IMG/VR virus record: IMGVR_UViG_2917881069_000003
Span: 1-31,925 of that record
Reading direction: 5' to 3' (one strand)
DNA: 31,925 nt
Source of the DNA: a virus
Taxonomy: Duplodnaviria; Heunggongvirae; Uroviricota; Caudoviricetes
In this document: positions 517-31,925 of the stretch, piece by piece
Layout: each line of letters opens with the position of its first letter
Position numbering within the stretch: position 1 is the first letter of the stretch
The notes under the pieces: model-generated
What the model was told of the DNA's origin: nothing
The model's database searches: none
The model's input: the letters and a program-made list of their open reading frames with translations, nothing else
Position numbers and translations under genes: made by a program

Positions 517-597
517 CGCGAGCACCTCTTCCGGTTTTGTTGATGGTGCCATTTTAGTTAATTTATCCTTATAAAACAAACAGATAAAATAAAAACA

Positions 598-1761
598 TCA
601 CTCATCATCTTCTGTTTCGTACTCCACATCAGAAAGCCTGACCTCAAGCTCTAAGGACGTCGTGAAGCCGCTATTATTCAGAAAATGTGTCACCTTAGTG
701 ATTGTCCAGTCCTGCTCGTCTATGACGCGCTTAAAGCCTGACACTCTGACCGGCGTTTCCGTGTAAATATCAGCCCGACCAGTGGCAAGGCTGATGGAGA
801 ACTCCGCAACGCCCCGTTGCAGTTTGTCCCACTTCGCCTGAGCGGCGCGCATTGCCTGCGCTTTCGTGGCATATACCGTGGTCAGGGCAAAAACGTTGTC
901 AGCCTCACCGGCCATGTATTCACCTTCGCGCGCTTCCGGTACTTTTGGTGCTTTCTTCTGCGTGACCGGTTTCGCTTTCGGGTGCTCCAGTGCGCGCAGG
1001 TGTTTCTCTTTCTTTTTGCGTTTCAGTTTTACCTTCTGCTTTTGCGGCTTCGGGTCTTTGGTGTGAAGCCACTTTGCCGTTACGCCGGTATAGGCTCCAC
1101 GGTCAGCAATCGCAAAATGATGACGGTCGCCGTCGCTGCGGGTGATGGTAATCTGCGGGATTTTTTTACCGCTGGCCGTCACCCCCTGCCCCGCTTTGAG
1201 AAACAACAGTTTTCCCATTTTTACCGACACCTCACCGCCGTTGCGTTCAGCAAGACGGGTCAGGAATTTCGCATCTGACTCCTGCGACTGGTCGATGTGC
1301 GGGATTTTAATTCCGGCCAGTGGCGGAGCGACACTGGCTTCCAGCCTGTTACGGGAGGCTATCGCTTCAACAATCGCACCGAGCGTGGTGTCATGCCAGG
1401 AGCCTTCACGGCGGGAATTGAGCGTCCCGCGAAAATCTGCACTCCGGGCGCGGATGGTAACCACATCCGGCGCGCCCCGGTGTTCAACCTCATCAACGGT
1501 AAATTTCCCTTTGCACACCAGGGCAAAACCTTTCCAGCCGATATACACCGTCAGGACAGCGCCACGAACCGGCAGCTCGACCTGCCCGTCGGCATCGTTC
1601 AGTTCAATATCAAGCTGGTCAGCCTCAAAGCCCCGGTTATCCGTCAGGGTCATGCTCATCAGACGGTCGCTGATATTGCCGGTAATATCCCTGCTGTCGA
1701 GCATCAGCATGTAATCCGGCGTCAGCGTACTGCCTGCATCAAATGTCAGCGTATCCAGCAT
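598..1761 (-). CDS. D: Tail protein D (387 aa, lysine-rich central segment)
   Basis: Length and sequence match P2 gpD; position between U and ogr as in P2. Confidence 0.9.
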   Translation of the reverse strand: MLDTLTFDAGSTLTPDYMLMLDSRDITGNISDRLMSMTLTDNRGFEADQLDIELNDADGQVELPVRGAVLTVYIGWKGFALVCKGKFTVDEVEHRGAPDVVTIRARSADFRGTLNSRREGSWHDTTLGAIVEAIASRNRLEASVAPPLAGIKIPHIDQSQESDAKFLTRLAERNGGEVSVKMGKLLFLKAGQGVTASGKKIPQITITRSDGDRHHFAIADRGAYTGVTAKWLHTKDPKPQKQKVKLKRKKKEKHLRALEHPKAKPVTQKKAPKVPEAREGEYMAGEADNVFALTTVYATKAQAMRAAQAKWDKLQRGVAEFSISLATGRADIYTETPVRVSGFKRVIDEQDWTITKVTHFLNNSGFTTSLELEVRLSDVEYETEDDE

Positions 1762-2240
1762 TATCCCGCCCCCGTCATACCCGTGAATCTGGTCGCCATA
1801 CTGCCAGCCTTACCGATGAGCGATTCCGCCTGTTTACCGATATCGCCATAAAGCGCGGCCAGTGATTCATCAACGCGGGTGAGCGACAGCGTAAAATCAA
1901 TTTTCCGGGGTGTGCCGTCTGCAAAGAAAATACTCCCTGTTTCACTCACCTTGCTGATGACATACATGCCGTAAATCATGCCAGTGCCATCCAGCAACGG
2001 CCACGCCCGGCCTTCATCTGCCATCAGCCTGAGCGTGGTCATCGTCAGCTTTCCGCCGGTCAGTTCGGGATAAAGCACACCGGCAAGCGTCATGTTTTCC
2101 TCACCCACACCGAGAAACTGGTAGGCATCCCGTTTACCGATACGGGAATTTGACGGCCAGCGATAATCTGATTCACGCTGCATGGTCTGGTGTGGCAGCG
2201 TCTGGCGCATAAAAACAAACATACCTAACGCGAGCATCAT
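1761..2240 (-). CDS. U: Tail protein U (159 aa)
   Basis: Length and order (T-U-D) as in P2; start overlaps the T stop region. Confidence 0.88.
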   Translation of the reverse strand: MMLALGMFVFMRQTLPHQTMQRESDYRWPSNSRIGKRDAYQFLGVGEENMTLAGVLYPELTGGKLTMTTLRLMADEGRAWPLLDGTGMIYGMYVISKVSETGSIFFADGTPRKIDFTLSLTRVDESLAALYGDIGKQAESLIGKAGSMATRFTGMTGAG

Positions 2241-2254
2241 TTTTCGTCACCTCC

Positions 2255-7942: not shown

Positions 7943-9232
7943 ATGAAAACCGATATCACTGCCATGTCTGAAAATATAGTGGAATTCTTTGAACAAACAA
8001 CACTGCATGATTACATCAAAAAAACATGGCTATACAATGAAAATTGCTTCGTTATTGATTTCGAATACAAAGGCGTGAAATTTGCATTAGATTTCACAGC
8101 CAGCCAACCAGGTGTAAACGTGGATTTTGTTCTACGAAATAATTACTCTTTTTATACTATAAAAGGCAATACTAAAAAAGAAAACATTTCATCTTCTGCT
8201 ATTTTAACAGCAGCCCTGCAAGCTTCTCTTCTAAAAATCACAACGGTAATTAATGAAATTAATTCTATTTATCCCTTTGATGTCTCAGTTATTATTCCGG
8301 TTCACAACCGAGAAACCCTTATTCTCGAATGCATTAAATCTTTAAACAATCAGACTATAGATAAAAATTGTTTTGAAGTTATTTTCATTGATGACTGTTC
8401 CACTGACAGGAGCATTGCCGCCATTGAATATAACATTTCGAGAGAAATAAATTATCGTATTATCCGTAGAGAAGTTGGTTCAGGAAATGCATCAGCGCCG
8501 CGAAATGAGGGAATAAAATCCGCAAAAGGTCGTTATGTGTTTTTCTTAGATTCTGATGATTCCATTCACTCTGACTTACTGTCCGATGGCATTCAGATGG
8601 CTTATAAAAATAATAGTGACATTGTATATTTCAAGCAGGTTTCCTCTACAGGAAGAGGGGTTCCCGTACGCCCATTTAAGGCAGACACAAATAAAGCGGA
8701 CATTATAAAAAACCATCTTTTCAGATCATTAAAAATCTTCAAGCTCTTTAAAAAAGAGTTACTAATCAATAATAACATCTTATTTAACCCATCAATTTCA
8801 GTCTATGAGGACATGCTTTTTTCTTGCCAAGCTCTAACTGTAGCTAATACGATATCTATACTGGCAAGAAAAGGCTACTACTCTCTGAATCGCCATGAAG
8901 AACCACATCTATCTAAAACATCTTTCTCCATTAAACAAAGAGTCTTAGTATTACAAACAGGTTTGATTTATATCTTATCAAGTAATAAAAATGAAGCAGA
9001 AATAGTAAAAATGTTTAATGCGTGGTTGGTTATTTGCGTTGAACACCTGGCATCCATATTATCCAAAAAAAGTTTAACAACTAATGAGAAATCTCATATT
9101 TTCAACTTGATACATAAATCATTCTTACCATATACAGGGTTTGTAAATGAGCCCCAAATATATCCCGCACAAAGAGAGCTGGTCAGTTGTTTAATCTGTG
9201 GAGATTATTCTTCTTTTTGCGAAAAAATATAA
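7943..9232 (+). CDS. Family-2 (GT-A fold) glycosyltransferase-like protein with unrecognised N- and C-terminal domains (429 aa)
   Basis: ATG with AGAGG RBS 7 nt upstream. GT2 motifs seen in translation: VSVIIPVHN, FIDDCSTD, SAPRNEG, FFLDSDD (DXD at nt 8549-8560), YED. Visibly AT-rich relative to the phage backbone and on the opposite strand to both flanking late operons. Confidence 0.8.
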   Translation: MKTDITAMSENIVEFFEQTTLHDYIKKTWLYNENCFVIDFEYKGVKFALDFTASQPGVNVDFVLRNNYSFYTIKGNTKKENISSSAILTAALQASLLKITTVINEINSIYPFDVSVIIPVHNRETLILECIKSLNNQTIDKNCFEVIFIDDCSTDRSIAAIEYNISREINYRIIRREVGSGNASAPRNEGIKSAKGRYVFFLDSDDSIHSDLLSDGIQMAYKNNSDIVYFKQVSSTGRGVPVRPFKADTNKADIIKNHLFRSLKIFKLFKKELLINNNILFNPSISVYEDMLFSCQALTVANTISILARKGYYSLNRHEEPHLSKTSFSIKQRVLVLQTGLIYILSSNKNEAEIVKMFNAWLVICVEHLASILSKKSLTTNEKSHIFNLIHKSFLPYTGFVNEPQIYPAQRELVSCLICGDYSSFCEKI

Positions 9233-9960: not shown

Positions 9961-12312
9961 TTACGTCGCATCCGACACAACGGTCGGCGAGTTGCAGAGA
10001 TACACGCTCCGGAACGCTTTGTTGGGCGCACCCAGGTCGCTGGTATTGTTAACCGATGGCCGGAATGCGCCGTTAATATCTGTATCCATCTGCATGAATG
10101 CAGTGCCGTCACTACGGGCTGCAATTACATAAGCGTCAGCAGAATCGTCATAAATACCCAGATTCCCGGCTGTTGATACCTGGAAAGCTCCCGCCTTCAG
10201 CGTGGTGCTGATGGCCATGCGCTTCTGGGTTTCGTCATCCGATTTAATATTCACGCCCTGCAGGTATGCCACATTCCAGCGATTTGGCGATGACCCCAGA
10301 TTCATTGCCTTGTCCTGGTCGGGATGAAATGACGGCGAGACCGGACTCAATAATACAGACCAGGTCTCACTGCCATCGGTACAATAAAGCCTTGTGCGTC
10401 CCGCCGACTGAGTATCGTTCATTGAGTAAAGGTTAATCCCGCCACCGCTCAACAAATCCACGTCAGCGCGTATTTCCAGACAATCGTGCACGGCGTTCAG
10501 GCGGTGTTTCCACTGAACGTAGCGGCCTGTGTATTCTCCGGTTCGGAACGCATCCCCGAACAAACGAAAAACAGCAGCAGAAGTGTCTGTATCCGGAGCC
10601 TCCTTTCTGACCTCAAATAACGGGCGATGCGAGCGCAGATTCTGCTCATAGGCTGCCACCTGGAAGTCTTCATTGGGTGACAGGGCTATATTTACAGCAT
10701 TAGGACTCAGAAAAAGGCTGGCATGGCTGTCAGGAAACGCCACGCCGGAGTCCACCAGATAGCCTGTGCCGTCGTAAGCCTCCACGGAAACCACAGCTTT
10801 GCTGCGTTTTGTCGCCACGCCACACGTATAAGACTTCGTGGCATCATATTTCGTTGCAGCCGCCGTTCCATATGCTGTAGGCGTCCAGTAAGATGGATTC
10901 ACCGGAGAACGGCCAGAAAAATTTGTTGCACGTGCTGCAAAGTATGCCCCCTCAAAAGAAACCACATCGGCTGTCTGACACCAGAAATCCATATCGAGCA
11001 GATACAGTTTTCCGTTATGGAGAGCCAGCCCTTCGGCTTCCTGCAAAACGGGATACCCCAGCTCTGCATTCCCCAGCATTTTCTGGCGACCATACCTGGC
11101 ACGAACGCCATCCACATTGAACTGTCTGACAACTTCGCCCGTTGACAGGTTATATACAACAATGCGGTGAGTCAGAAATACGCCTGTATAACCGTAATAA
11201 GCAAACAGATAATGACCATCGCTGGCCATCCCCTGAAATGCCTGCGACACCATTGGCTGGGTGGACAGATAAATCCGGTGTTTAAACGTCAGAGAGGCGC
11301 GATCGAAAACATAAACTGTGCGGCGATCATCCCTGTTGTAATGAAGATGGACGGCCTCATCACCTGACTGAACAATTAACAGGCTTCCGTCTGCCGACAA
11401 TGCCACCGTTATAATTTCATCCCCGGTAAAAAAGTCAGAGGTGAAAATCTCCGTACGGGTGACATCTGTCAGACTGGTGTCAGCCCCATTCCAGTTGATG
11501 ATATTCACACCCTTGCCGTCAGCGGTCGGGGTATACAGCATCACGCGACCGTCTTCACATACAGCCCCGATACTCTGGTGACCAATATCAGCGAAAACGG
11601 GAGAAAACGAAATGACCGTCGGGTTTTCGTTTTCTCCGTCAGGGTTAAATGTCGTTTCAACAATCCTTACGCCACCCGATACAGGCTGATGCAGAAACAT
11701 TCGGGTTCCCTGCGGCGTATCACAGATACAGAACCCCTGGCTCATCTTATCCGCGCCGTCAAAAATCCCGGCGTAGTCAATATCGTGGACAACTTTATGC
11801 TGAAGAACCACATCATCAATGACAGTACGATGAAGACTGGATATGGCTTTGTCGACGTAATCCTGCGTCGCCATCACTGTGCTGGCATCAATACTCAGCT
11901 CAACGGACGCCACGTTACTGACAATAATAACCATGCGGCAGGTCTGCGCACGTCCGGAACCTTCAGCCAGTTCAGGCTTATAGCTTTCCGCCATGTTGGC
12001 GACCGCAATCAGTGTTCCGGCATCGTCATACAGACCAAGCTCACGCATCCAGAAGCCGCCCACATCTGGCGGTACAACCAGTTCAGCCACAATATAGTTT
12101 TTATTCTTATTATCCACGCTGACTTTATTCAGGGCATGACGCCAGACCTCATGCACCAGCTTCGTCTGACCGGCATCCGGCACCGGCAATTTGCCATTAC
12201 CGTCACCCACGGCCATTGCAGACAGGTTTACTTTTTTCCCGCCGGGGACAGTGGCGGCTGCCAGCTTTGCGGCTCCGGCAGTAGTGATAACGGTTTTAAA
12301 TTTCGTGCTCAT
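9961..12312 (-). CDS. H: Tail fibre protein H (783 aa); conserved P2-like N-terminal part (about 160 aa) with a divergent distal region
   Basis: N-terminus MSTKFKTVITTAGAAKLAAAT... matches P2 gpH; the remainder is unrelated to the P2 gpH distal region as I recall it, and the protein is longer than P2's 669 aa. Confidence 0.85.
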   Translation of the reverse strand: MSTKFKTVITTAGAAKLAAATVPGGKKVNLSAMAVGDGNGKLPVPDAGQTKLVHEVWRHALNKVSVDNKNKNYIVAELVVPPDVGGFWMRELGLYDDAGTLIAVANMAESYKPELAEGSGRAQTCRMVIIVSNVASVELSIDASTVMATQDYVDKAISSLHRTVIDDVVLQHKVVHDIDYAGIFDGADKMSQGFCICDTPQGTRMFLHQPVSGGVRIVETTFNPDGENENPTVISFSPVFADIGHQSIGAVCEDGRVMLYTPTADGKGVNIINWNGADTSLTDVTRTEIFTSDFFTGDEIITVALSADGSLLIVQSGDEAVHLHYNRDDRRTVYVFDRASLTFKHRIYLSTQPMVSQAFQGMASDGHYLFAYYGYTGVFLTHRIVVYNLSTGEVVRQFNVDGVRARYGRQKMLGNAELGYPVLQEAEGLALHNGKLYLLDMDFWCQTADVVSFEGAYFAARATNFSGRSPVNPSYWTPTAYGTAAATKYDATKSYTCGVATKRSKAVVSVEAYDGTGYLVDSGVAFPDSHASLFLSPNAVNIALSPNEDFQVAAYEQNLRSHRPLFEVRKEAPDTDTSAAVFRLFGDAFRTGEYTGRYVQWKHRLNAVHDCLEIRADVDLLSGGGINLYSMNDTQSAGRTRLYCTDGSETWSVLLSPVSPSFHPDQDKAMNLGSSPNRWNVAYLQGVNIKSDDETQKRMAISTTLKAGAFQVSTAGNLGIYDDSADAYVIAARSDGTAFMQMDTDINGAFRPSVNNTSDLGAPNKAFRSVYLCNSPTVVSDAT

Positions 12313-12853: not shown

Positions 12854-13755
12854 CCGAGCCTCCGGTCACGACGCTGTATTCGGTGCAGAAAGACGCCTGC
12901 GTACTGTTGAGCACAATGTCGGCCAGTGGTGCGGCCAGCTCGACACGCTGCACGCCTTCCACATGCAAAGCGGCATAAATGGCAGACAGACGGATGTCAC
13001 GCCCCAGCCGGTGCTGTGCCGTGATGTACGCTTCCAGTTTTTTCACGGCAGCAGCGCGGATGGGTTCGCTTTCGGGACCAGGGTAAAGGTAAAGCGTGGC
13101 GTTTATCTGGTATTCAACAATGGCGGCAGACTGCACGGTCACGCGGTCGGCCACCGGCCTGACGTCCTCACCATTAAGGGCGTTGCGCACCACCGCCAGC
13201 AGGTCTTCGGATGCCACACCGTTATTTTCACGTGACAGCACGGAGATGGTGACACAGGCAGGAGACGGACTGGTGACAGAGATATCCGCGACACGCCCGT
13301 CGGCACTGCGACCATGATACTGATAGGCTCCCACCGACCCGGCGACGCTTAAACCTTCAAACGCCTGCTGAATACGCAGACGATAATCGGTGTCAGACTC
13401 CATCACTGCCGGTGTCGGCGGGGATGGTCGAATCATCTGCCGGGGTGATAGTCAGGCGCGTGGTGTTGTAATTGGCACCAATCACATCAAGGTCATTACC
13501 GGCGGCACAGGCCAGCATCACCGCCCGTGCGGCCTCATTCACACGCTGACGCCAGATAAGCTCACGATAAGCATTTTCCTCCAGCAGTTTGACGAGAGGC
13601 TCAGATTCCAGCGTCAGGGTACGGGCGACCGCCTCCTGCTGGTCTTCCGGGTAAAGGGAAATCAGTGTCGCCTTGCGTTCGGCAAGAATGGTTTCAAAGT
13701 CCAGCTCCTCGACCACATCCGGTGCGGGTAGCTGGTTCAGGTCGATAATCGGCAT
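12846..13755 (-). pseudogene. J: Baseplate wedge protein J, interrupted by a 1-nt insertion in a G/C run
   Basis: Two overlapping ORFs in different frames (13393-13755 and 12846-13436) together cover the P2 gpJ sequence. 910 nt is one base more than 303 codons (P2 J is 302 aa). The break is at gggg 13420-13423, where the recalled P2 sequence DDSTIPPTPAVMESD needs one fewer G/C. Confidence 0.7.
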
Positions 13756-14107: not shown

Positions 14108-14745
14108 TTTGTCCCCTGTGTCCAGTTGTCTCCTGACTTAACACCACCGTGACCGTGGTCATCCACCTGAACGCCGTTAGACGTGAATTTCCCGTCGGTA
14201 TGCTCGATGTTGCCGTGCATCTTCCCGCCCTTCTGCACTTCCAGCGTGCCGGTAGTCAGTTTGTTAGTGCAGACCACTTCCGGTGTGTCCAGGGTGATGC
14301 GGGTTGACGCTTTCACCATGACCACCGGCACCGTGGCAGTAACAGAATCAGAAGCCGTCACGCTGGCCGTTTTAATTCCGCTTACCGTGAGTGCACTGGT
14401 TTCGGGTTCATATTCAATCACCGCCCCGTCAGGGAAACGGATATGCAGGGCATCCGCCGACGCAGACGGCGCGGGGTTATCACCGGAATAAATCCCCGGC
14501 AGAACGAACGCCGTGTCGAGTTCACCGCCCACGGCCAGAATCAGCACCTGTTCCCCCACGGAAGGTGCCCACCACGTGCGCGAACGCCCGGCGCGACAGG
14601 TCAGCCACTGAAGCCAGTCGGTGCACATGCCGCCGGTCTGCACACGGCAGCGACCGGCGTTAAGGTCGGTTTCGACGACAAGGCCGGTACGAATCATGTT
14701 GCGCAGTACGCGCGCGAGTTCCTGAATATTTGCGAGAGTGTTCAT
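14104..14745 (-). CDS. V: Baseplate spike/assembly protein V (213 aa)
   Basis: Length close to P2 gpV (211 aa) and position as in P2. Confidence 0.88.
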   Translation of the reverse strand: MNTLANIQELARVLRNMIRTGLVVETDLNAGRCRVQTGGMCTDWLQWLTCRAGRSRTWWAPSVGEQVLILAVGGELDTAFVLPGIYSGDNPAPSASADALHIRFPDGAVIEYEPETSALTVSGIKTASVTASDSVTATVPVVMVKASTRITLDTPEVVCTNKLTTGTLEVQKGGKMHGNIEHTDGKFTSNGVQVDDHGHGGVKSGDNWTQGTK

Positions 14746-21185: not shown

Positions 21186-22958
21186 ATGACCATCACCACA
21201 GACACCACTCTTTTACACGACCCGCGTCGTCAGGCGGCGCTGCTGTACTGGCAGGGATTTTCCGTGCCGCAGATTGCCGCCATGTTGCAGATGAAACGCC
21301 CGACGGTGCAGAGCTGGAAACAGCGCGACGGCTGGGACAGCGTTGCCCCCATCAGCCGTGTCGAAATGAGTCTGGAAGCGCGGCTGACCCAGCTCATCAT
21401 CAAACCGCAGAAAACCGGCGGTGACTTCAAGGAAATTGACCTGCTGGGACGCCAGATTGAACGACTGGCACGGGTAAACCGTTACAGTCAGACCGGCAAC
21501 GAGGCAGACCTTAATCCGAACGTTGCTAACCGCAACAAAGGCGGGCGCCGCAAACCGAAAAAGAATTTTTTCAGTGACGAGGCCATCGAAAAGCTGGAGC
21601 AGATTTTCTTTGAGCAGTCTTTTGAATATCAGTTGCACTGGTATCGCGCCGGGCTTGAGCACCGCATCCGCGATATTCTGAAATCCCGCCAGATTGGCGC
21701 AACGTTTTATTTTTCCCGCGAGGCGCTGCTGCGCGCCCTGAAAACCGGTCATAACCAGATTTTTCTGTCGGCCAGTAAAACGCAGGCGTATGTGTTCCGC
21801 GAATACATCATCGCCTTTGCCCGTCTGGTTGACGTTGACCTTACCGGTGACCCGATTGTCCTGGGCAATAACGGCGCAAAACTGATTTTTCTCGGCACCA
21901 ACTCCAACACCGCACAGAGCCATAACGGCGACCTGTACGTCGACGAGATTTTCTGGATCCCGAATTTTCAGGTACTGCGTAAGGTGGCATCAGGTATGGC
22001 CTCACAGAGTCACCTGCGCTCGACCTATTTCTCCACCCCGTCCACGCTGGCGCACGACGCCTACCCGTTCTGGTCTGGTGAACTGTTCAACCGGGGACGC
22101 GCCAGCGCCGCCGAACGTGTGGAAATCGACGTCAGTCATAACGCCCTAGCCGGTGGGCTTCTCTGTGCGGACGGTCAGTGGCGGCAGATTGTCACCATTG
22201 AGGATGCCCTGAAAGGTGGCTGCACACTGTTCGACATTGAGCAGCTCAAACGCGAAAACAGCGCCGACGATTTTAAAAACCTGTTCATGTGTGAATTTGT
22301 TGACGACAAGGCGTCGGTGTTCCCGTTCGAGGAGCTGCAACGCTGCATGGTCGACACGCTGGAAGAATGGGAAGACTATGCGCCGTTTGCCGCGAATCCG
22401 TTCGGCTCCCGCCCGGTATGGATTGGTTACGACCCGTCACACCGTGGCGACAGCGCCGGATGCGTGGTACTGGCACCGCCGGTGGTGGCCGGTGGCAAAT
22501 TCAGAATACTTGAGCGTCACCAGTGGAAAGGCATGGACTTTGCCACTCAGGCGGAATCCATCCGCAAACTCACCGAAAAATACAACGTCGAATACATCGG
22601 TATTGATGCCACCGGCCTCGGTGTCGGCGTGTTCCAGCTCGTGCGCTCGTTCTATCCCGCCGCGCGCGATATCCGCTACACACCGGAAATGAAAACCGCA
22701 ATGGTGCTCAAGGCAAAAGACGTTATCCGCCGTGGCTGTCTGGAATATGACGTCAGCGCCACCGACATCACCAGCTCGTTTATGGCTATCCGCAAGACCA
22801 TGACCAGCAGCGGACGCAGCGCCACCTATGAGGCCAGTCGCAGCGAGGAAGCCAGCCACGCCGACCTCGCCTGGGCGACCATGCACGCCCTGTTAAATGA
22901 GCCACTCACCGCCGGTATCAGCACCCCGCTGACATCCACCATTCTGGAGTTTTACTGA
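21186..22958 (+). CDS. P: Terminase large (ATPase) subunit P (590 aa)
   Basis: ATG at 21186 with GAGG RBS gives MTITTDTTLLHDP..., 590 aa as in P2 gpP; divergent from O as in P2. Confidence 0.9.
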   Translation: MTITTDTTLLHDPRRQAALLYWQGFSVPQIAAMLQMKRPTVQSWKQRDGWDSVAPISRVEMSLEARLTQLIIKPQKTGGDFKEIDLLGRQIERLARVNRYSQTGNEADLNPNVANRNKGGRRKPKKNFFSDEAIEKLEQIFFEQSFEYQLHWYRAGLEHRIRDILKSRQIGATFYFSREALLRALKTGHNQIFLSASKTQAYVFREYIIAFARLVDVDLTGDPIVLGNNGAKLIFLGTNSNTAQSHNGDLYVDEIFWIPNFQVLRKVASGMASQSHLRSTYFSTPSTLAHDAYPFWSGELFNRGRASAAERVEIDVSHNALAGGLLCADGQWRQIVTIEDALKGGCTLFDIEQLKRENSADDFKNLFMCEFVDDKASVFPFEELQRCMVDTLEEWEDYAPFAANPFGSRPVWIGYDPSHRGDSAGCVVLAPPVVAGGKFRILERHQWKGMDFATQAESIRKLTEKYNVEYIGIDATGLGVGVFQLVRSFYPAARDIRYTPEMKTAMVLKAKDVIRRGCLEYDVSATDITSSFMAIRKTMTSSGRSATYEASRSEEASHADLAWATMHALLNEPLTAGISTPLTSTILEFY

Positions 22959-23992
22959 TGAGCAAGAAAAAAGGGAAAACACCGCAACCTGCGGCAAAAA
23001 AAATGACCGCCAGCGCCCCGAAAATGGAGGCATTCACCTTTGGTGAGCCGGTGCCGGTACTCGACCGCCGTGACATTCTGGATTACGTCGAGTGCATCAG
23101 TAACGGCAGATGGTATGAGCCGCCGGTCAGCTTTACCGGTCTGGCAAAAAGCCTGCGTGCTGCCGTGCATCACAGCTCACCGATTTACGTCAAACGTAAT
23201 ATTCTGGCCTCGACATTTATCCCGCACCCGTGGCTGTCCCAGCAGGATTTCAGCCGCTTTGTGCTGGATTTTCTGGTGTTCGGTAATGCGTTTCTGGAAA
23301 AGCGTTACAGCACCACCGGTAAGGTCATCAGACTGGAAACCTCACCGGCAAAATATACCCGCCGTGGTGTGGAAGAGGATGTTTACTGGTGGGTGCCGTC
23401 CTTCAACGAGCCGACAGCCTTCGCGCCCGGTTCCGTGTTTCACCTGCTGGAGCCGGATATTAATCAGGAGCTGTACGGCCTGCCGGAATATCTCAGCGCC
23501 CTTAACTCTGCCTGGCTGAATGAGTCGGCCACGCTGTTCCGCCGCAAGTATTACGAAAACGGCGCTCATGCCGGATACATCATGTACGTCACCGATGCCG
23601 TGCAGGATCGCAACGATATCGAAATGCTTCGCGAAAACATGATCAAGTCGAAAGGCCGCAACAACTTTAAAAACCTGTTTCTCTATGCCCCGCAGGGAAA
23701 AGCCGACGGCATTAAAATTATCCCGCTCAGTGAAGTGGCAACGAAGGACGATTTTTTTAATATCAAAAAAGCCAGCGCCGCTGACCTGCTGGACGCGCAC
23801 CGCATCCCCTTTCAGTTGATGGGTGGCAAGCCGGAAAACGTCGGGTCTCTGGGTGATATTGAGAAAGTGGCAAAGGTCTTTGTCCGCAATGAGCTTATCC
23901 CGCTACAGGACAGGATTCGGGAAATAAACGGCTGGCTCGGTCAGGAGGTCATCCGCTTTAAAAACTACTCACTGGACACTGACAACGGCTGA
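22958..23992 (+). CDS. Q: Portal protein Q (344 aa)
   Basis: 344 aa as in P2 gpQ; ATGA overlap with the P stop. Confidence 0.9.
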   Translation: MSKKKGKTPQPAAKKMTASAPKMEAFTFGEPVPVLDRRDILDYVECISNGRWYEPPVSFTGLAKSLRAAVHHSSPIYVKRNILASTFIPHPWLSQQDFSRFVLDFLVFGNAFLEKRYSTTGKVIRLETSPAKYTRRGVEEDVYWWVPSFNEPTAFAPGSVFHLLEPDINQELYGLPEYLSALNSAWLNESATLFRRKYYENGAHAGYIMYVTDAVQDRNDIEMLRENMIKSKGRNNFKNLFLYAPQGKADGIKIIPLSEVATKDDFFNIKKASAADLLDAHRIPFQLMGGKPENVGSLGDIEKVAKVFVRNELIPLQDRIREINGWLGQEVIRFKNYSLDTDNG

Positions 23993-23997
23993 ACATC

Positions 23998-24019
23998 GCC
24001 GCCTGCGGGCGGCTTTTTT
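23998..24019 (+). terminator. Rho-independent terminator after Q (gccgcc tgcg ggcggc + tttttt)
   Basis: 6-bp GC stem, 4-nt loop and T6 tract read directly, 6 nt after the Q stop. Confidence 0.65.
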
Positions 24020-24161
24020 ACACCCCGTCATCACGCCCTCACACGCTCACCACCGCACAAAACACCCCGCAGACACACCAACGCCTCAACGGGCAGACTA
24101 AGCGCCTTCACGACGCGCTCAGACACTGAAAAAATAAAATCAGCACCACCGCCAGCGCGCA

Positions 24162-24180
24162 GTGCTTTCCCCGCCTCGCC
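24162..24180 (-). other. cos: cos cohesive-end site: 19-nt sequence GGCGAGGCGGGGAAAGCAC on the minus strand
   Basis: Plus strand gtgctttccccgcctcgcc is the exact reverse complement of the P2 19-nt cohesive end as I recall it. It lies about 170 bp beyond Q, as in P2, with a CA-rich stretch between the Q terminator and cos. Confidence 0.75.
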
Positions 24181-24370
24181 CGCCCGCTTCATGGGGCTGT
24201 TTTGATGCAGATGCATTATGTCTCCCTCCCCAGTGCTGCGTTGCAGTCGGAACACAAAAACCGTTATCAAAATCACATGCAAATAGACGCAGTCAAATGC
24301 GCTGCCGCCCCTCGCAATACCTTCAATTTCATGATAAAAAAACACAATCCCTTAAAAGAGCATTATCCTC

Positions 24371-25237
24371 ATGAAAAAAGTATATGAACTAACCAGTGAA
24401 GAAGCACTGTCATATTTTCTTCGCCATGATTCCTACACAACCTTAGAATTGCCAGCATATATTAATTTCGCTACGTTATTAAATAATATTAATTCGTCTA
24501 TCCATAACAAAAAAATTAAAATTGAACCAACCGCCAAAGACCTGATGGGTAAAAATATCAATTATGAGGTGCTTGTCAGTAAAGATGGACTATATAGCTG
24601 GCGCAGGATAACACTTATCAATCCTCTTTATTATGTCTACTTCTGTAGAAAAATCACAGCACCAACAACTTGGGAAATCATAACAGAAAAATTCAAATCT
24701 TTTGAATCAAACGACCTTTTTACATGTTCAAGCATCCCCGTCAGGAAAGACGACTCATCAAACATTGCGGCGTCAGTAATGAATTGGTGGGGAGATTTTG
24801 AACAAAAAAGCCTTGCCCTTGCTCTTGAATATGAATTCATGTTCAGCACTGATATCTCAAACTTCTACCCATCAATATATACTCATAGTTTTGAATGGGT
24901 ATTCATATCAAAAGAAGAGGCAAAGAAGAAAAAAGACAAAAACAACCCTGGCCGATTAATTGACAACCACATTCAAATGATGATGAACAATCAGACAAAT
25001 GGTATTCCACTCGGCAGCACATTGATGGATACTTTTGCTGAGCTTATCCTGGGTAAAATCGATATAGAATTAAGAAAAAAAACTAACGAATTCAAGATTA
25101 CAAACTACAAGGTTGTACGTTACCGTGATGATTACCGGATTTTTTCTAATAGTAAAGATGATTTAGACATAATATCCAAATGTTTAGTCAACGTGTTAGG
25201 TGATTTTGGTTTAGATCTAAAACTCAAAAAAAACTGA
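24371..25237 (+). CDS. Reverse transcriptase domain ORF of an Abi-P2/AbiK-like RT (288 aa as sequenced; N-terminal part of a roughly 515-codon gene)
   Basis: RT catalytic motifs in the translation: STDISNFYPSI (motif A, nt 24845-24877), GIPLGSTLMDTFAELIL (motif B, 25001-25051), VRYRDDYRIF (YxDD motif C, 25115-25144). The ORF ends at a TGA immediately after an A8 run. Confidence 0.75.
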   Translation: MKKVYELTSEEALSYFLRHDSYTTLELPAYINFATLLNNINSSIHNKKIKIEPTAKDLMGKNINYEVLVSKDGLYSWRRITLINPLYYVYFCRKITAPTTWEIITEKFKSFESNDLFTCSSIPVRKDDSSNIAASVMNWWGDFEQKSLALALEYEFMFSTDISNFYPSIYTHSFEWVFISKEEAKKKKDKNNPGRLIDNHIQMMMNNQTNGIPLGSTLMDTFAELILGKIDIELRKKTNEFKITNYKVVRYRDDYRIFSNSKDDLDIISKCLVNVLGDFGLDLKLKKN

Positions 25238-25253
25238 GCTATATGAAGATATT

Positions 25254-25919
25254 GTGCTTCACTCCTTGAAACAAGCCAAAAAAGACTATATCAAAGAAAA
25301 AAGACACAAGTCACTCCAGAAAATGCTCTACTCAATATATTTACTCTCACTAAAACATCCAAACTCGAAAACAATCGTTAGATATCTCAATGATTTTCTT
25401 AGAAAATTATTTAGAATGAATACAATTACAGATAACGGTCACCAAATAGATGCCATGCTTGGTATTATTTCAAGCATCATGGCAAAAAACCCTACAACGT
25501 ACCCAGCAGGAACTGCCATTTTCTCAAAACTCCTCAGTTTTCTTTATACTGACGACACATATCCTAAATTCAAAAAACTAGAACAACTCCATAAAAAACT
25601 TGCTAAGCAACCCAATACAGAAATGCTTGATATATGGTTTCAGCGAATTCAAGCAAAAATAAACCCAGAGTGGGAAAGCTCTTATAAGTCAGCTCTATGC
25701 GTCCGTGTAAATGATGAACTCACGAAAAAGAAAACAGTTTCTGAAAATAATTTATGGAATATTGACTGGATTCCAGGAAAAGAAACGAACAGAAACAAAG
25801 CCCAAATATTATCATTACTAACGAAAACAAAAATTGTTGATGCAGAAAAATTTGAGAAAATGGATAATGACATAATACCCGAAGAAGTTGATTTATTCTT
25901 TAAAGAATACAGCAATTAA
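25254..25919 (+). CDS. C-terminal alpha-helical domain ORF of the same RT (221 aa as sequenced, in another frame; ORF-track start is a GTG)
   Basis: The frame is open from 25221. Removing one A from the A8 run at 25226-25233 joins it to the upstream ORF as ...LDLKLKKTELYEDIVLHSLKQ... Lys/Leu-rich helical composition typical of the C-terminal domains of Abi-type RTs. Confidence 0.6.
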   Translation: MLHSLKQAKKDYIKEKRHKSLQKMLYSIYLLSLKHPNSKTIVRYLNDFLRKLFRMNTITDNGHQIDAMLGIISSIMAKNPTTYPAGTAIFSKLLSFLYTDDTYPKFKKLEQLHKKLAKQPNTEMLDIWFQRIQAKINPEWESSYKSALCVRVNDELTKKKTVSENNLWNIDWIPGKETNRNKAQILSLLTKTKIVDAEKFEKMDNDIIPEEVDLFFKEYSN

Positions 25920-25926
25920 TATCCCA

Positions 25927-25958
25927 AAGCCATGCTAGTAACATAACATGGCTTTTCA
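25927..25958. terminator. Candidate terminator hairpin between convergent RT and A genes
   Basis: aagccatg ... catggctt inverted repeat followed by tttcaaa on the + strand. Confidence 0.35.
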
Positions 25959-26022
25959 AATCATCCATTAAGCAGTTATCAAGAGCGAACACAATATTCT
26001 ATTCTGATGAGTTAAATTATCA

Positions 26023-28308
26023 TTAGCTCCACTTAATATCTGTTATATCCTCCGGCCACTCATCAGCGACCGGATACGTAAATTTTTCCCCACAATAGCT
26101 TACCGTTGCCCCACGCGCCAGCACCTCAAGCTCCCATCGCTGCGGCCTGATACCGTTCTGAGCAAGGTCAACGCGGATACGGGTAATTTGCATTCGTTCC
26201 GACCGGGTCAGTCTGGCCGATGGTGCAATTTCATGCGGTTTTAACGGGCTTCCGTTTCTTTGCTGACGATTTGGCGTTCTCAGCCCGTGTTTTAATGCGC
26301 CCCTGAGCGCCTTCACGACCTCCGGGTCATTCCATTCGATAACACCGTCATCAACCAGATTAAGCACTGCTGCGGCGTGCTCAGAAGGTGTGGGAGCCGG
26401 TAACGAAGTATCACCACCGGTGACCTTTCCACAGTTATTGACAGGACTCCGAGGCGCGGCGATGCCGCTTTTTAAAGTCAAAGGCTCAACGACCGGAACT
26501 TTCGGCACAATGCGCCAGTCCGTCGTTCTGGTGATATGAATATGACGCGCGCCGAGATGCGGCGCGTAAATGCCGACCACTCTCTCGACTTCTTCCTCGT
26601 ACTCGTTAACGTCATCCGACGGGCTACGGGCGACCCTGACAGTCTGACAATCGCGCGGGACATTTGCCCCGCCCTGCGCGCTGATATACAACGCAAAATC
26701 ACCACTGTCTGCAGCGGCGCGTGCAGCCTCGACGCGCTCGTCAAACTCATCAGCAATGCTGACGCCGCGAGGCAATTTGCGTAGTTCACGGTAAGCCCCC
26801 ATTGTCGGCAGACCAACCGTTTTAAATTGCGGAATGCGCCACGTTGACGCCCATGCGGTAACAGCCGCAGCTGTGTCTTTCAGCGGCCTACCGGTATCAT
26901 TATCGAGCTGACCATCCAGTGCATAGCCGTCGATGTTTTTTGAGATGTATTTCGCGATATATCCCGCAGCACCGCCCCGGTTAAGGTGTTTTGCCTGAAA
27001 ACGGTTTCGCGCGGCTCCTCTTTCGTCGCCATCCTCTTTGAGCGCATAGCGACGCATGATTTCAATAATCTGGTTACGCTGGCGTGGATTACAAAAAAGC
27101 ATCATATGCCAGTGCGGCGTTCCGTCGTGGTGTGGTTCAACAACACGCAAACCGTAGGCCTGTAAATCATTATCCTTGAATGCCGTGCGCATCAGGCTCC
27201 AGATACGGCAGAGATAACGCTGCGCATCCTTTGGATTAAATGCCTCATCATTCCAGCCGTGATTTAGCTGGACGGTTTTACTTTCGCCTTTTCTGACCTG
27301 ACGTGTCGGGTGATACTTTGACGGCGCGGTCAGCGTGATAAACATCCCCACATCACCCTCTGCGGCAGCGTAACGCTCAATACCGGCGATGGTGTTCATC
27401 AGCTCCATCCGGCGAATTTCTGGATTAGAAATACTGCCCATCACCTTACTGATAAGGTCGATGCGCTCGCCGGTTTCCCTGTTTTCAAGGTCACACGATT
27501 TAAGAAATTCCAGATTTGCCTGGCGGCGCGCACGCACATCACGAATGGCATGTTTACTGGCATAAGGAGAACGGTCTTTATTGACCTCCCCGACAGCAAT
27601 CAGTAACGCCTCATGCCAGCGCATACGCTGGCCTTTAAGCTGATGAGTCCACCATTCATCGTTAAACAGACGGGCAATGGCAGAATATGCCTGCCTCGTG
27701 GTCATCTGCCCTTTACGGTATTTTTTCCAGTAGAGCGGGGAAATATTGAAAGCACGTGCAGCGCCAGCAACATGACCATACAGGTGAGCCTGCGCCTCAT
27801 CCGTAAACAGCGATTCTTTCTCGCCATGCGCATCCACCCAGGCATCGCAGAGTTCCTCATACATTATGAAAAGCTGCGATGAGATACGGGCGGCAAACTT
27901 TTTCAGCTCCTTGTCATTCATTCCAGGCAGGCGCGCATAGTGGTCACGCTCTGCCAGAAACAGCAACGACGCGTCGGTGTTCATTTCATGGCGCTGATTA
28001 ACGCGCTCAATGCGCGGCCATAAACGACGCTGAAAAGTGGATGTGAGGAAATAAAACCCGTGCACCGGGCTTTTATTGCGCCGGATGTAGTCATAGCGTG
28101 AAGTAAACAGCGAGCGCAAAAAGTAAGGCAGGCGATTAATCGTGGATAAAACACCTTGCACCTGACGCATCTCGTCACGTGTAAGGGGTCTTTCGCGCCC
28201 GACGGCCTCGCGTGGCGCGTTCCATGCATAAGCACCGGTAAACGCCTTACCGGTGCCTACGGCAAATGCTGACGGAGGGACAAAACGCCCGGAGGCTTTA
28301 ACGGCCAT
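26023..28308 (-). CDS. A: Replication initiation protein A (rolling-circle endonuclease, 761 aa)
   Basis: Start at MAVKASGRFVPPSAF... (ATG 28306-28308) gives 761 aa as in P2 gpA; the ORF-track version is 14 aa longer. Confidence 0.9.
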   Translation of the reverse strand: MAVKASGRFVPPSAFAVGTGKAFTGAYAWNAPREAVGRERPLTRDEMRQVQGVLSTINRLPYFLRSLFTSRYDYIRRNKSPVHGFYFLTSTFQRRLWPRIERVNQRHEMNTDASLLFLAERDHYARLPGMNDKELKKFAARISSQLFIMYEELCDAWVDAHGEKESLFTDEAQAHLYGHVAGAARAFNISPLYWKKYRKGQMTTRQAYSAIARLFNDEWWTHQLKGQRMRWHEALLIAVGEVNKDRSPYASKHAIRDVRARRQANLEFLKSCDLENRETGERIDLISKVMGSISNPEIRRMELMNTIAGIERYAAAEGDVGMFITLTAPSKYHPTRQVRKGESKTVQLNHGWNDEAFNPKDAQRYLCRIWSLMRTAFKDNDLQAYGLRVVEPHHDGTPHWHMMLFCNPRQRNQIIEIMRRYALKEDGDERGAARNRFQAKHLNRGGAAGYIAKYISKNIDGYALDGQLDNDTGRPLKDTAAAVTAWASTWRIPQFKTVGLPTMGAYRELRKLPRGVSIADEFDERVEAARAAADSGDFALYISAQGGANVPRDCQTVRVARSPSDDVNEYEEEVERVVGIYAPHLGARHIHITRTTDWRIVPKVPVVEPLTLKSGIAAPRSPVNNCGKVTGGDTSLPAPTPSEHAAAVLNLVDDGVIEWNDPEVVKALRGALKHGLRTPNRQQRNGSPLKPHEIAPSARLTRSERMQITRIRVDLAQNGIRPQRWELEVLARGATVSYCGEKFTYPVADEWPEDITDIKWS

Positions 28309-28573
28309 ATGAGCCAAAAGCCTCTGAACAACGCCTGCTGAGTTGCTCAACCTGCGCGTTTAAATCAGCAAAAGACTTTGCGCTTCCGGTCAGAATATCG
28401 TGATGCATCAGGCCGGAAACGAGCTGGCTTAATTTCGGGTAATAACCAACCACCGACAGCCATTCCTGACCGGCGTTTTTACCGCTTTCCGCTCTCTTTT
28501 TCTCGTGGAGAATAAACTGAAAGCTGTCACTGGTAACGACATAACGTTCGCCAATTTCAATACGAATACTCAT
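28298..28573 (-). CDS. Hypothetical early-operon protein (91 aa), overlapping the A start
   Basis: ORF in the P2 early operon position immediately upstream of A; function unknown. Confidence 0.55.
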   Translation of the reverse strand: MSIRIEIGERYVVTSDSFQFILHEKKRAESGKNAGQEWLSVVGYYPKLSQLVSGLMHHDILTGSAKSFADLNAQVEQLSRRCSEAFGSYGR

Positions 28574-30061: not shown

Positions 30062-30391
30062 TTAAGCCGCACGGCCATGTCTTGATTTGCTATAACTAAT
30101 GCGATTTTTCCAGTCGTGCCATTCTGATGGAGCTTCATCGACTAGCTGTGCTGCGTACTTGTCCCACTCACGACGATTAATCCATAACTCAGCATGACCT
30201 CCCGGCTTTAATGGGTCTGCCATGTAAAAGGCAGGCAGCTTGCCTGCTTTCGCCATTTCAGCTACAGCGCGAGGCGTCTTACCGATGTAAAGAGCAAAAC
30301 CCTCTTTCGAGAGTAGATCCGACGGTGCGGCAGCGAGCTTGATGTCACATTTTTTTACTTTTTGTGAGATCAGATACTTTTTCTCCAACAT
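30062..30391 (-). CDS. cox: Cox-like excisionase/early repressor (HTH DNA-binding, 109 aa as ORF)
   Basis: First gene of the leftward early operon, divergent from C; contains ...GKTPRAVAEMAKAGKLP..., resembling the P2 Cox helix-turn-helix region. Start not verified. Confidence 0.5.
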   Translation of the reverse strand: MLEKKYLISQKVKKCDIKLAAAPSDLLSKEGFALYIGKTPRAVAEMAKAGKLPAFYMADPLKPGGHAELWINRREWDKYAAQLVDEAPSEWHDWKNRISYSKSRHGRAA

Positions 30392-30928: not shown

Positions 30929-31925
30929 ATGTCTATTAAAAAGCTCGATGATGGTCGTTATGAAGTGGACGTCAGACCGCAGGGTGCAGATGGAAAACGT
31001 ATCAGGCGGAAATTTAAAACTAAGGGTGAAGCTCAAGCATTCGAACGTCATGTCCTGGTTAACTACCACAACAAAGAGTGGTTGGAGAAGCCAGCCGACC
31101 GCCGAACTCTTACAGAGTTGTTAGGCAGATGGTGGATATATCACGGAAAATCACATGAGCGTGGAGATATTGAACGGGGGGCGTTTGACGACAATAATCG
31201 CCAAATTTGCAGAAATGGGAGTGTCCAGAGCTGACCAGCTAACAAAGAAAACGATAACTGATTATCGCGTTGTAATGATGAACGATGGTCTTAAACCAGC
31301 CAGCGTAAATCGGCATCTGGCAATAATGAGCGGGATGTTCACCAAGTTAATTGACGCCGGTGAATACCACTCTCACAACCCGTTCCGTGAGGTTAAGCGG
31401 TTACGTGAAGCTGTTACGGAAATGGCTTTTTTGTCCAGTGAAGAGATTACGCGGCTGTTATCCATGCTTGATGGTGATGAATTAAATGCAACTCTGGTCT
31501 GCCTTTCTACTGGTGGACGCTGGAGTGAAGTGTCAAATTTAAAAGCTGAACACATCATTAACCAGATGGTTACGTTTATGAAAACTAAAAACGGAAAGCG
31601 CAGGACAATTCCCGTGTCGCAGGACCTGATTAAACGGATCAAGACCAAAAATTCAGGCAGGCTTTTTAATGCCAGTTACTACAAAGTGCGCAACGCTCTC
31701 AGGGAAGTAAAACCCGATTTACCTGACGGACAGGCAGTGCATGTTTTGAGGCATACATTTGCCACACATTTTATAATGAATGGAGGTAACATAATCACAT
31801 TGCAGCGCATCCTGGGTCATTCTAACATTCAGCAAACTATGACCTACGCACACTTTGCACCGGATTTCTTACAAGATGCAGTGACTCTTAACCCGGTGTC
31901 AGGAATGTCCATAATGCGTCCATAA
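30929..31925 (+). pseudogene. int: Tyrosine integrase (P2 Int family), interrupted by a 1-nt indel in a G6 run
   Basis: Two ORFs in different frames (30929-31234 and 31155-31925). N-terminus MSIKKLDDGRYEVDVRPQG...; C-terminal catalytic region with HVLRHTFATH...LGHSNIQQTMTYAHF (R, H-x-x-R, Y). Removing one G from gggggg at 31176-31181 restores a single reading frame of about 331 aa. Confidence 0.75.

What the first reader, a model, noticed from the sequence alone, without database searches (positions are those of the whole stretch)
25226..25233. Reverse transcriptase gene split by a one-base frameshift in an A8 homopolymer
The RT-domain ORF ends ...GLDLKLKKN-stop immediately after aaaaaaaa (25226-25233), and the C-terminal domain continues in another frame. 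Removing one A gives a continuous ...LDLKLKKTELYEDIVLHSLKQAKKDY... protein. This may be a sequencing error, an inactivating mutation of a costly defence gene, or a slippage-prone tract that switches the RT on and off (phase variation).
Basis: seen in the sequence. Interest (0 to 1): 0.5.

Follow-up and report, generated by a model that had tools for sequence, protein, structure and literature searches.

The report
Sequencing-error frameshift in Abi-P2 defence gene
The "split reverse transcriptase" is the well-known Abi-P2 anti-phage gene of a P2-like prophage, and the split is almost certainly an Ion Torrent sequencing error: one extra A in a short A-run just upstream of the A8 tract, not a change in the A8 tract itself.

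Summary
The A8 run (25226-25233), the TGA right after it and the frame change to the downstream ORF are all present. But the A8 is not where the frame breaks. Eleven homologous loci read directly carry the same A8 in frame (TCA AAA AAA ACT = S-K-K-T). One of them is 99.95% identical and intact. The only indel is an extra A in the run 4 nt upstream: A4 at 25219-25222 versus A3 elsewhere. Deleting it reproduces exactly a 515-aa database protein.

The gene is Abi-P2, the P2-EC30 orf570 type (PDB 7R08). It lies in the P2 variable region between cos/portal and replication gene A.

The window comes from Escherichia sp. E2661, an Ion Torrent-only 40x draft. The window holds four more ±1 homopolymer frameshifts, in tail fibre H, baseplate J, cox and integrase. 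Two host core genes on the same contig, ycaD and dmsA, are also frameshifted. No nonsense codons were seen.

The best explanation is a base-calling artefact. No homologue read shows A8 length variation, and no homologue is split into two ORFs, so phase variation and programmed slippage are unsupported.

Interest is low. Raw reads or Sanger resequencing would settle it.

The parts
24371..25919 (+). Abi-P2 (P2-EC30 orf570-type) reverse-transcriptase-like defence gene. It is 1549 nt as deposited and 1548 nt / 515 aa once the extra A is removed.
   Evidence: The repaired protein matches PADLOC AbiP2 at E=1.5e-160 over residues 1-513. It matches PDB 7R08 over residues 1-510 and Pfam RVT_1 over residues 144-292. 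It is 91% nt identical to AM157365 P2-EC30 'reverse transcriptase ORF570'.
24371..25237 (+). ORF1 as deposited: 288 aa holding the fingers and most of the palm, including YRDD at residue 251. It ends ...LDLKLKKN-TGA.
   Evidence: Annotated publicly as WP_240782740.1, found only in Escherichia sp. E2661.
25254..25919 (+). ORF2 as deposited, in the +1 frame: the end of the palm and the whole C-terminal helical domain. The public annotation starts it at TTG 25266 (217 aa, WP_240782741.1).
   Evidence: It aligns to the C-terminal part of 7R08.
25219..25222 (+). A4 run holding the one extra base that breaks the frame. All homologues have A3 here: CTA AAC = Leu-Asn of the conserved LDLNSKKT.
   Evidence: Alignments. 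Tract survey: 11 other loci have A3, and only this contig has A4.
25226..25233 (+). It has the wild-type length and is in frame in intact homologues (TCA AAA AAA ACT).
24162..24180 (-). P2 cos cohesive-end sequence GGCGAGGCGGGGAAAGCAC. It places the RT gene in the variable region next to cos.
   Evidence: Exact match, 0 expected in shuffles. The identity of this 19-mer as P2 cos is from my own memory.
22958..23992 (+). Portal protein gene (P2 Q), the left neighbour of the hotspot. It is followed by a terminator-like hairpin at 23996-24013.
26023..28350 (-). Replication endonuclease gene (P2 A), the right neighbour of the hotspot.
9963..9963 (-). Control site: tail-fibre gene H frameshifted. 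The window has a single A where the intact homologue has AA.
13420..13423 (-). Control site: baseplate gene J frameshifted. G4 where the intact homologue has G3.
30350..30356 (-). Control site: cox frameshifted. T7 on the + strand where the 99.6% identical reference has T6.
31176..31181 (+). Control site: integrase frameshifted. G6 where the reference has G5. Both halves are 100% aa identical to the intact reference.

Best explanation
The gene is an ordinary, most likely intact, Abi-P2 abortive-infection polymerase carried as a stand-alone cargo gene. It sits in the variable region of a P2-like prophage, between cos/portal gene Q and replication gene A.

The apparent split into 288-aa and 217/221-aa ORFs comes from one spurious extra A in a short A-run (A3 read as A4, 25219-25222). 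This run lies 4 nt upstream of a long A8 tract that is itself correct.

The extra base is most probably a flow-based (Ion Torrent) homopolymer over-call that survived into the consensus of a 40x single-end draft of Escherichia sp. E2661.

What is shown here:
- The position of the indel.
- An intact allele identical at all but one other base.
- The sequencing platform.
- The same error type in six other genes of the contig.

What is inferred:
- That this particular base is an error rather than a true mutation.
- That leakage of the large A8 flow signal into the neighbouring A flow (phasing) is the physical cause.

Function is taken from the literature on the 90% identical P2-EC30 protein. It has an RT-like palm and fingers plus a C-terminal helical domain, forms trimers, belongs to the Abi polymerases that perform protein-primed, template-independent DNA synthesis, and protects the lysogen against phage T5 (PMC9508834).
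For: 1. Position of the indel. Every homologue aligned has A3 + A8. The only gap against the window is in the A3/A4 run.

2. An intact near-identical allele exists. Logan contig SRR5149961_810 (L008) equals window 24160-26223 except for one synonymous G>A at 25051 and that one A. It encodes the intact 515-aa P0122, which is identical to my A4->A3 repair.

3. Platform. The window is GCA_004745185.1 contig PDIG01000018.1, Escherichia sp. E2661. The genome announcement states Ion Torrent, single-end 35-400 nt reads, 40x, MIRA/SPAdes (PMC6639607). A review reports that Ion Torrent over-calls short homopolymers and under-calls long ones (PMC10688829, citing Bragg 2013).

4. The same lesion type recurs in the window. 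Against intact E. coli P2-like prophages, H, J, cox and int each carry a single ±1 change in a 2-7-nt homopolymer. There are no stop codons in 9169 aligned aa. The two integrase halves are 100% aa identical to the reference.

5. It is not confined to the prophage. In 9 kb of host chromosome on the same contig, ycaD (A5->A6) and dmsA (next to a T7) are frameshifted. pflA, ycaC, dmsC and dmsB are intact.

6. The split protein WP_240782740.1 exists in this one assembly only.
Against: - No raw reads could be inspected, so the call at 25219-25222 is not directly verified.
- Real +1 insertions in short runs do occur.
- Abi-P2 genes are genuinely inactivated in nature, for example by the ISEc12 insertion in NZ_CM129876.
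- The near-identical intact allele comes from a different run with one SNP, so it is not proof for strain E2661 itself.
- A consensus error at 40x requires a systematic rather than a random miscall. That is inferred here, not shown.
Confidence: 0.87

Rival explanations
1. A genuine, recent inactivating mutation. A real +1 A insertion in codon 285 (Asn of LDLNSKKT) truncates Abi-P2 at residue 288. This removes the end of the palm and the whole helical domain needed for trimerisation and DNA synthesis, so a costly abortive-infection gene is switched off.
For: - The sequence as deposited has the frameshift.
- Both halves are otherwise undamaged, as expected for a recent event.
- Natural inactivation of this gene family occurs: an ISEc12 insertion in L004 and an A8->A7 truncation at another tract in two complete genomes of the sister clade.
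- The helical domain is required for oligomerisation and activity (PMC9508834).
Against: - Six other genes on the same contig carry the same kind of homopolymer ±1 change: essential phage genes J and H, int, cox, and the host core genes ycaD and dmsA. There is not a single nonsense codon.
- The platform is Ion Torrent.
- A gene-specific selective explanation is not needed, and it cannot explain the host genes.
Confidence: 0.1
2. A slippage-prone switch. The split is real, and the A8 tract lies inside the 14-nt overlap of the two frames (25221-25234). It would let RNA polymerase or ribosomes slip by one base (mRNA A7, or a +1 shift) and make some full-length protein (LDLKLKKTEL...). Alternatively the tract changes length in DNA and turns the gene on and off (phase variation).
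For: - The A8 lies exactly between the TAA of the downstream frame (25218-25220) and the TGA of the upstream frame (25235-25237).
- Loss of one A restores a 515-aa ORF that differs from the wild type by only N285K and S286L.
- From general knowledge, runs of 8 or more A are known slippage sites in bacteria.
Against: - No homologue has the two-ORF arrangement. All are single ORFs with A8 in frame.
- A pattern search that allowed A7-A9 in IMG/VR and metagenomes, plus the E. coli genomes, found only A8.
- The tract is not conserved in the 74% clade, which has AAC TCA AGA AAA ACA.
- A8 runs are expected from this gene's codon composition.
- The rescued protein would change the Asn of the LDLNSKKT stretch that is invariant in the close homologues.
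Confidence: 0.02
3. A naturally two-gene system: an RT-domain protein and a separately translated helical-domain protein.
For: ORF2 has possible GTG and TTG starts at 25254 and 25266, and the public annotation lists two proteins.
Against: - About 500 homologues at E<=1e-30 were found. Those of 68-90% identity that cover the whole query are single chains of 514-570 aa. The shorter ones read through LDLNS[KR]KTEL and look like contig-end fragments.
- The solved structure is a single chain.
- The 217-aa product occurs only in this assembly.
Confidence: 0.01

Closest known systems
Abi-P2 of prophage P2-EC30 (orf570; GenBank AM157365 / CAJ43154; PDB 7R08)
   Same: - 91% nt and 90% aa identity over the full length after repair.
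- The same genomic slot, between cos/portal Q and replication gene A of a P2-like prophage.
- A single-gene system with no Rfam RNA nearby.
- The same YRDD active-site motif and LDLNSKKT stretch, and the same in-frame A8 tract.
   Different: - About 10% aa divergence, mostly in the helical domain.
- The host is Escherichia cryptic clade II, not E. coli.
- The deposited sequence has one extra A (A4 for A3) that splits the ORF.
Ion Torrent / 454-type homopolymer indel artefacts in draft bacterial assemblies
   Same: - A flow-based platform.
- ±1 length errors confined to homopolymers, mostly over-calls of short runs: A3->4, G3->4, G5->6, T6->7, A5->6.
- The errors are spread over unrelated genes, including host core genes, with no nonsense mutations.
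   Different: The error sits in the short run next to a long homopolymer rather than in the long run itself. Raw flow data were not examined.
Transcriptional or translational slippage sites and homopolymeric contingency loci (examples from memory: dnaX A-rich heptamer, IS element A-runs, Shigella mxiE T9, Neisseria/Haemophilus phase-variable tracts)
   Same: An A8 run lies within the overlap of two reading frames in the deposited sequence.
   Different: - The two-frame arrangement is not conserved.
- The homologues read show no tract-length polymorphism.
- The tract is in frame in all intact relatives and absent from the sister clade.
AbiK / AbiA / DRT (UG) class 1 reverse-transcriptase defence proteins
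   Same: An RT-like palm and fingers followed by a helical C-terminal domain. PADLOC gives secondary matches to Drt6, RT_UG14, Drt4, Drt3b and AbiK at E = 1e-45 to 1e-27.
   Different: These scores are far weaker than the AbiP2 match (E=1.5e-160). According to PMC9508834 the helical domains of AbiK and Abi-P2 share no sequence homology.

Membership tests
Abi-P2 (UG/Abi reverse transcriptases, P2-EC30 orf570 type) | Full-length sequence similarity to the family profile and to the solved Abi-P2 chain | tested here: met
   PADLOC AbiP2 at E=1.5e-160, residues 1-513 on profile positions 4-487 of 489. PDB 7R08 at 1023 bits over residues 1-510. Both used the A4->A3 repaired translation, which is identical to database protein P0122.
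Abi-P2 (UG/Abi reverse transcriptases, P2-EC30 orf570 type) | RT-like palm with a YxDD catalytic motif | tested here: met
   Pfam RVT_1 at 43.3 bits against a cut-off of 29.6. YRDD at residues 251-254.
Abi-P2 (UG/Abi reverse transcriptases, P2-EC30 orf570 type) | C-terminal alpha-helical domain on the same chain, replacing the thumb | tested here: inconclusive
   The coding sequence for it is present and undamaged (25254-25919; it aligns to 7R08). In the deposited sequence it is in another frame. It is on the same chain only if the extra A is an error, which is the best-supported reading.
Abi-P2 (UG/Abi reverse transcriptases, P2-EC30 orf570 type) | Location in the variable region of a P2-like prophage, as a single-gene system | tested here: met
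   It lies between portal Q/cos (22958-23992; 24162-24180) and replication gene A (26023-28350). No Rfam RNA was found at E<=0.1.
Abi-P2 (UG/Abi reverse transcriptases, P2-EC30 orf570 type) | Trimer formation, template-independent protein-primed DNA synthesis, and exclusion of phage T5 | not testable with these tools
   Known for the P2-EC30 protein or for the Abi polymerase group (PMC9508834). It needs biochemistry and plaque assays.
Programmed frameshift / transcriptional slippage gene | The two-frame arrangement is conserved among homologues | tested here: not met
   All homologues are single ORFs: 10 of the 11 E. coli genomes of the 91% clade (the 11th is interrupted by ISEc12), P2-EC30, 5 complete IMG/VR or metagenome loci and Logan L008.
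Programmed frameshift / transcriptional slippage gene | A slippery tract within the overlap of the two frames | tested here: met
   The A8 at 25226-25233 lies inside the overlap 25221-25234. The same tract is in frame in intact genes, so this is not discriminating.
Homopolymeric phase-variable (contingency) locus | Tract-length polymorphism among close relatives | tested here: not met
   A pattern that allowed A7-A9 returned only A8 in the 11 other loci read. The 7 further E. coli genomes have the intact 1548-nt match length.
Flow-sequencing homopolymer artefact | The assembly was made from flow-based reads only | tested here: met
   PMC6639607 Table 1 and methods list E2661 as Ion Torrent, 40x. 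The contig identity was established.
Flow-sequencing homopolymer artefact | Similar ±1 homopolymer indels in unrelated genes, including conserved host genes, without other lesion types | tested here: met
   H, J, cox and int; ycaD and dmsA; 0 stop codons in the alignments.
Flow-sequencing homopolymer artefact | Read-level evidence of miscalling at the site | not testable with these tools

The most novel reading that the evidence does not exclude
The extra A is real in strain E2661, and the A8 tract immediately downstream, inside the 14-nt overlap of the two frames, lets RNA polymerase or the ribosome slip by one base at low frequency. A trickle of full-length Abi-P2 (N285K/S286L) would then be made. 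That would be a leaky, tunable expression state of a toxic abortive-infection polymerase, reached by a frameshift next to a slippery run.
Probability: 0.02. Interest if true: 0.45.

Novelty: not a real feature. Interest (0 to 1): 0.06.

Why it matters
It matters mainly as a caution. The gene is a known defence gene (Abi-P2) in a known prophage hotspot. The split that drew attention is best explained by the sequencing chemistry of this draft genome, in which roughly one gene in six over the stretches examined is broken the same way.

Anyone mining this assembly, and probably its 15 sister Ion Torrent assemblies of Escherichia clade II, for pseudogenes, phase-variable tracts or split defence genes would be misled. 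The public two-protein annotation (WP_240782740.1 and WP_240782741.1) should be read as one 515-aa protein.

If the frameshift were real, it would be one more example of loss of a costly Abi system. That would still be unsurprising.

Tried and rejected
- **Closer intact relatives in species-representative genomes.** The genome-contig scan gave only two distant loci, Entomohabitans and a record titled Martelella, at 69-71% identity. They were of no use for the tract.
- **Identity of the independent run.** A literature search for SRR5149961 found nothing, so the nature of that sample stays unknown.
- **Exact look-up of the 221-aa GTG-start ORF2.** It is not in the collection; the annotated product starts at TTG 25266.
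- **An associated non-coding RNA, as in retrons or DRT2.** Rfam gave nothing at E<=0.1 in 23900-26100, consistent with a single-protein system.
- **Promoter and terminator scan.** The number of promoter-like hits was not above the shuffles, so no promoter is claimed.
- **'Decaying prophage' as the cause of all five prophage frameshifts.** Rejected, because the adjacent host genes ycaD and dmsA show the same lesions.
- **Placing the indel inside the A8.** This needs four extra mismatches against every homologue, where a gap in the A3/A4 run needs none.
- **Unused resources.** Structure prediction and the large representative-protein search were not run, because a 90% identical solved structure exists.

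Full report
**1. What is in the sequence**

The window reads GAT CTA AAA CTC AAA AAA AAC TGA at 25214-25237. An A8 run lies at 25226-25233, and the RT ORF 24371..25237 (288 aa) stops at TGA 25235-25237.

The downstream part of the protein is open in the +1 frame as far back as a TAA at 25218-25220. The two frames therefore overlap only over 25221-25234. Deleting any one A of the A8 yields a 515-aa ORF.

**2. Where the frame actually breaks**

The gene has 11 close relatives (about 91% nt identity) among 5,426 complete E. coli genomes. Ten are single 1548-nt 'RNA-directed DNA polymerase' CDSs. The eleventh (NZ_CM129876) is interrupted by ISEc12. There is one relative in the phage collection, P2-EC30 'reverse transcriptase ORF570'.

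In the multiple alignment the only gap lies upstream of the A8. The homologues read GAT CTA AAC TCA AAA AAA ACT GAA (L-N-S-K-K-T-E). They have A3 where the window has A4 (25219-25222), and the same A8, in frame. Placing the gap inside the A8 instead would cost four mismatches.

The cluster of the 288-aa product contains a 515-aa protein, P0122, from a Logan assembly (SRR5149961). Its 2063-nt contig equals window 24160-26223 except for two things: one synonymous G>A at 25051, and the missing A in that same run. Its A8 is identical. P0122 is letter for letter my A4->A3 repair.

A pattern search allowing A3/A4 and A7-A9 in IMG/VR and in metagenomes found six more loci. All have A3 + A8. The five that contain the complete gene carry an intact 1548-nt ORF; the sixth is cut by a contig end.

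So A8 is the wild-type length, and the frameshift is a one-base excess in the neighbouring short run. LDLNS[KR]KTEL is invariant in the relatives I read, down to about 73% identity.

**3. Is the A8 remarkable?**

No.
- The gene is 33.5% GC (the window is 51.6%) and 11% lysine, with 50 AAA against 8 AAG codons.
- It has a second A8 at 25075-25082.
- Codon shuffles give on average 1.28 runs of A>=8 per gene, and two or more in 38% of shuffles.
- In the 74%-identity E. coli clade the homologous codons are AAC TCA AGA AAA ACA, so the run is not conserved.

**4. What the gene is**

The repaired protein matches:
- PADLOC AbiP2 at E=1.5e-160 over its whole length;
- the solved Abi-P2 structure 7R08 at 1023 bits over residues 1-510;
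- Pfam RVT_1 over residues 144-292. YRDD lies at residue 251.

It sits between the portal gene (22958-23992) with the cos sequence (24162-24180, exact match) and replication gene A (26023-28350). This is the slot that carries orf570 in P2-EC30. No Rfam RNA accompanies it.

Figiel et al. (PMC9508834) report that:
- Abi-P2 has RT-like palm and fingers plus a unique C-terminal helical domain;
- it forms trimers through that domain;
- it belongs to the Abi polymerases that make DNA without a template from a protein primer;
- orf570 confers resistance to phage T5.

A product truncated at residue 288 would lack the end of the palm and the whole helical domain. By inference it would be inactive.

**5. 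Why the split is most likely an artefact**

The 288-aa product occurs in one assembly only: GCA_004745185.1, contig PDIG01000018.1, Escherichia sp. E2661. [quoted passage not shown] Reads were single-end, 35-400 nt, at 40x for E2661, assembled with MIRA and SPAdes. Ion Torrent is reported to over-call short homopolymers and under-call long ones (PMC10688829, citing Bragg 2013).

I then used the rest of the window as a control. Against intact E. coli P2-like prophages, four more genes are frameshifted. Each has a single ±1 change in a homopolymer:

| Gene | Window | Intact reference | Position |
|---|---|---|---|
| Tail fibre H | A | AA | 9963 |
| Baseplate J | G4 | G3 | 13420-13423 |
| cox | T7 | T6 | 30350-30356 |
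| Integrase | G6 | G5 | 31176-31181 |

There is no stop codon in 9169 aligned residues. The two integrase halves are 100% identical in protein to the reference.

A decaying prophage could in principle explain this. I therefore fetched 9 kb of host chromosome from the same contig and compared it with E. coli. ycaD (A5->A6) and dmsA (next to a T7) are frameshifted too. pflA, ycaC, dmsC and dmsB are intact.

That is seven homopolymer frameshifts in about 34 kb of coding sequence, and five of them (A3->4, G3->4, G5->6, T6->7, A5->6) are clear over-calls of runs of 3-6 bases. Together with a flow-based platform, this is the signature of consensus errors, not of biology.

A plausible physical cause is phasing leakage of the eight-fold A signal into the neighbouring A flow. 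This is my inference and was not tested.

**6. Rivals**

- **A real inactivating insertion (about 0.10).** It cannot be excluded without reads. Abi-P2 genes are genuinely broken elsewhere: an ISEc12 insertion in NZ_CM129876, and an A8->A7 change in a different tract in two complete genomes of the sister clade.
- **Programmed slippage or phase variation at the A8 (about 0.02).** The tract does lie in the frame overlap. However, no homologue is split, none of those read varies in tract length, and the rescued protein would alter the Asn of the invariant LDLNSKKT stretch.
- **A natural two-gene system (about 0.01).** This is refuted by the homologue survey.

**7. Verdict**

The gene is a new allele of a known defence gene in a known hotspot, in a host (Escherichia cryptic clade II) where it had not been pointed out. 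The frameshift is best treated as not a real feature. Interest is low.

Noticed in passing
window 9963; 13420-13423; 30350-30356; 31176-31181: Four further ±1 homopolymer frameshifts relative to intact E. coli homologues, in tail-fibre H, baseplate J, cox and integrase. The genes are otherwise 98-100% identical in protein and contain no nonsense codons.
   Followed up: yes
L020 ~14665-14670 (ycaD) and ~19034 (dmsA); the same E2661 contig, host DNA beyond the window: Two host core genes are also frameshifted at homopolymers (A5->A6, and next to a T7). The public annotation has no protein call over these stretches or over the integrase.
   Followed up: yes
L010 (NZ_CP090611) and L011 (NZ_CM169489), against L012 positions ~1574-1581: In the 74%-identity Abi-P2 clade of E. 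coli, two complete genomes carry A8->A7 in a different A-tract (AAGGGAAAAAAAACATT). The annotated CDS is cut to 463 aa (WP_023569112.1 and WP_248691085.1). This could be a real recurrent truncation or a long-read homopolymer error.
   Followed up: partly
L004 (NZ_CM129876) 1-1690: The Abi-P2 homologue of strain PCP06022 is interrupted by an IS21-family ISEc12 element, with the first ~219 nt of the gene displaced. This is a genuine natural inactivation of the gene family.
   Followed up: no
L002 (NZ_CP049845) 573-4548: In UPEC-245U the same P2 hotspot holds a retron Ec48-family RT plus membrane effector next to Abi-P2, so two RT-based defence systems sit side by side between the portal gene and gene A.
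   Followed up: no
window 24160-24180; L008 position 1: The independent Logan contig (SRR5149961_810) begins 2 nt before the 19-nt cos sequence. This might mean the reads came from packaged linear phage DNA, or it may be only an assembly-graph break.
   Followed up: no
window ~7943-9229 (+): A glycosyltransferase-family-2 cargo gene lies between the tail-sheath and tail-fibre genes. In the window it is one 441-aa ORF that lacks about 80 residues (reference residues 58-136) present in the E. coli 4069 homologue. The deletion junction shows a ~15-nt overlap in the alignments.
   Followed up: no
window 24202-24387 (+) versus L001 78-170: The N-terminal extension that gave P2-EC30 its 'ORF570' (and the 546-aa construct used for the structure) is in a different frame from MKKVYEL in the window. 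Here only the 515-aa form starting at 24371 is possible, which agrees with the RefSeq 515-aa annotation of the E. coli homologues.
   Followed up: partly
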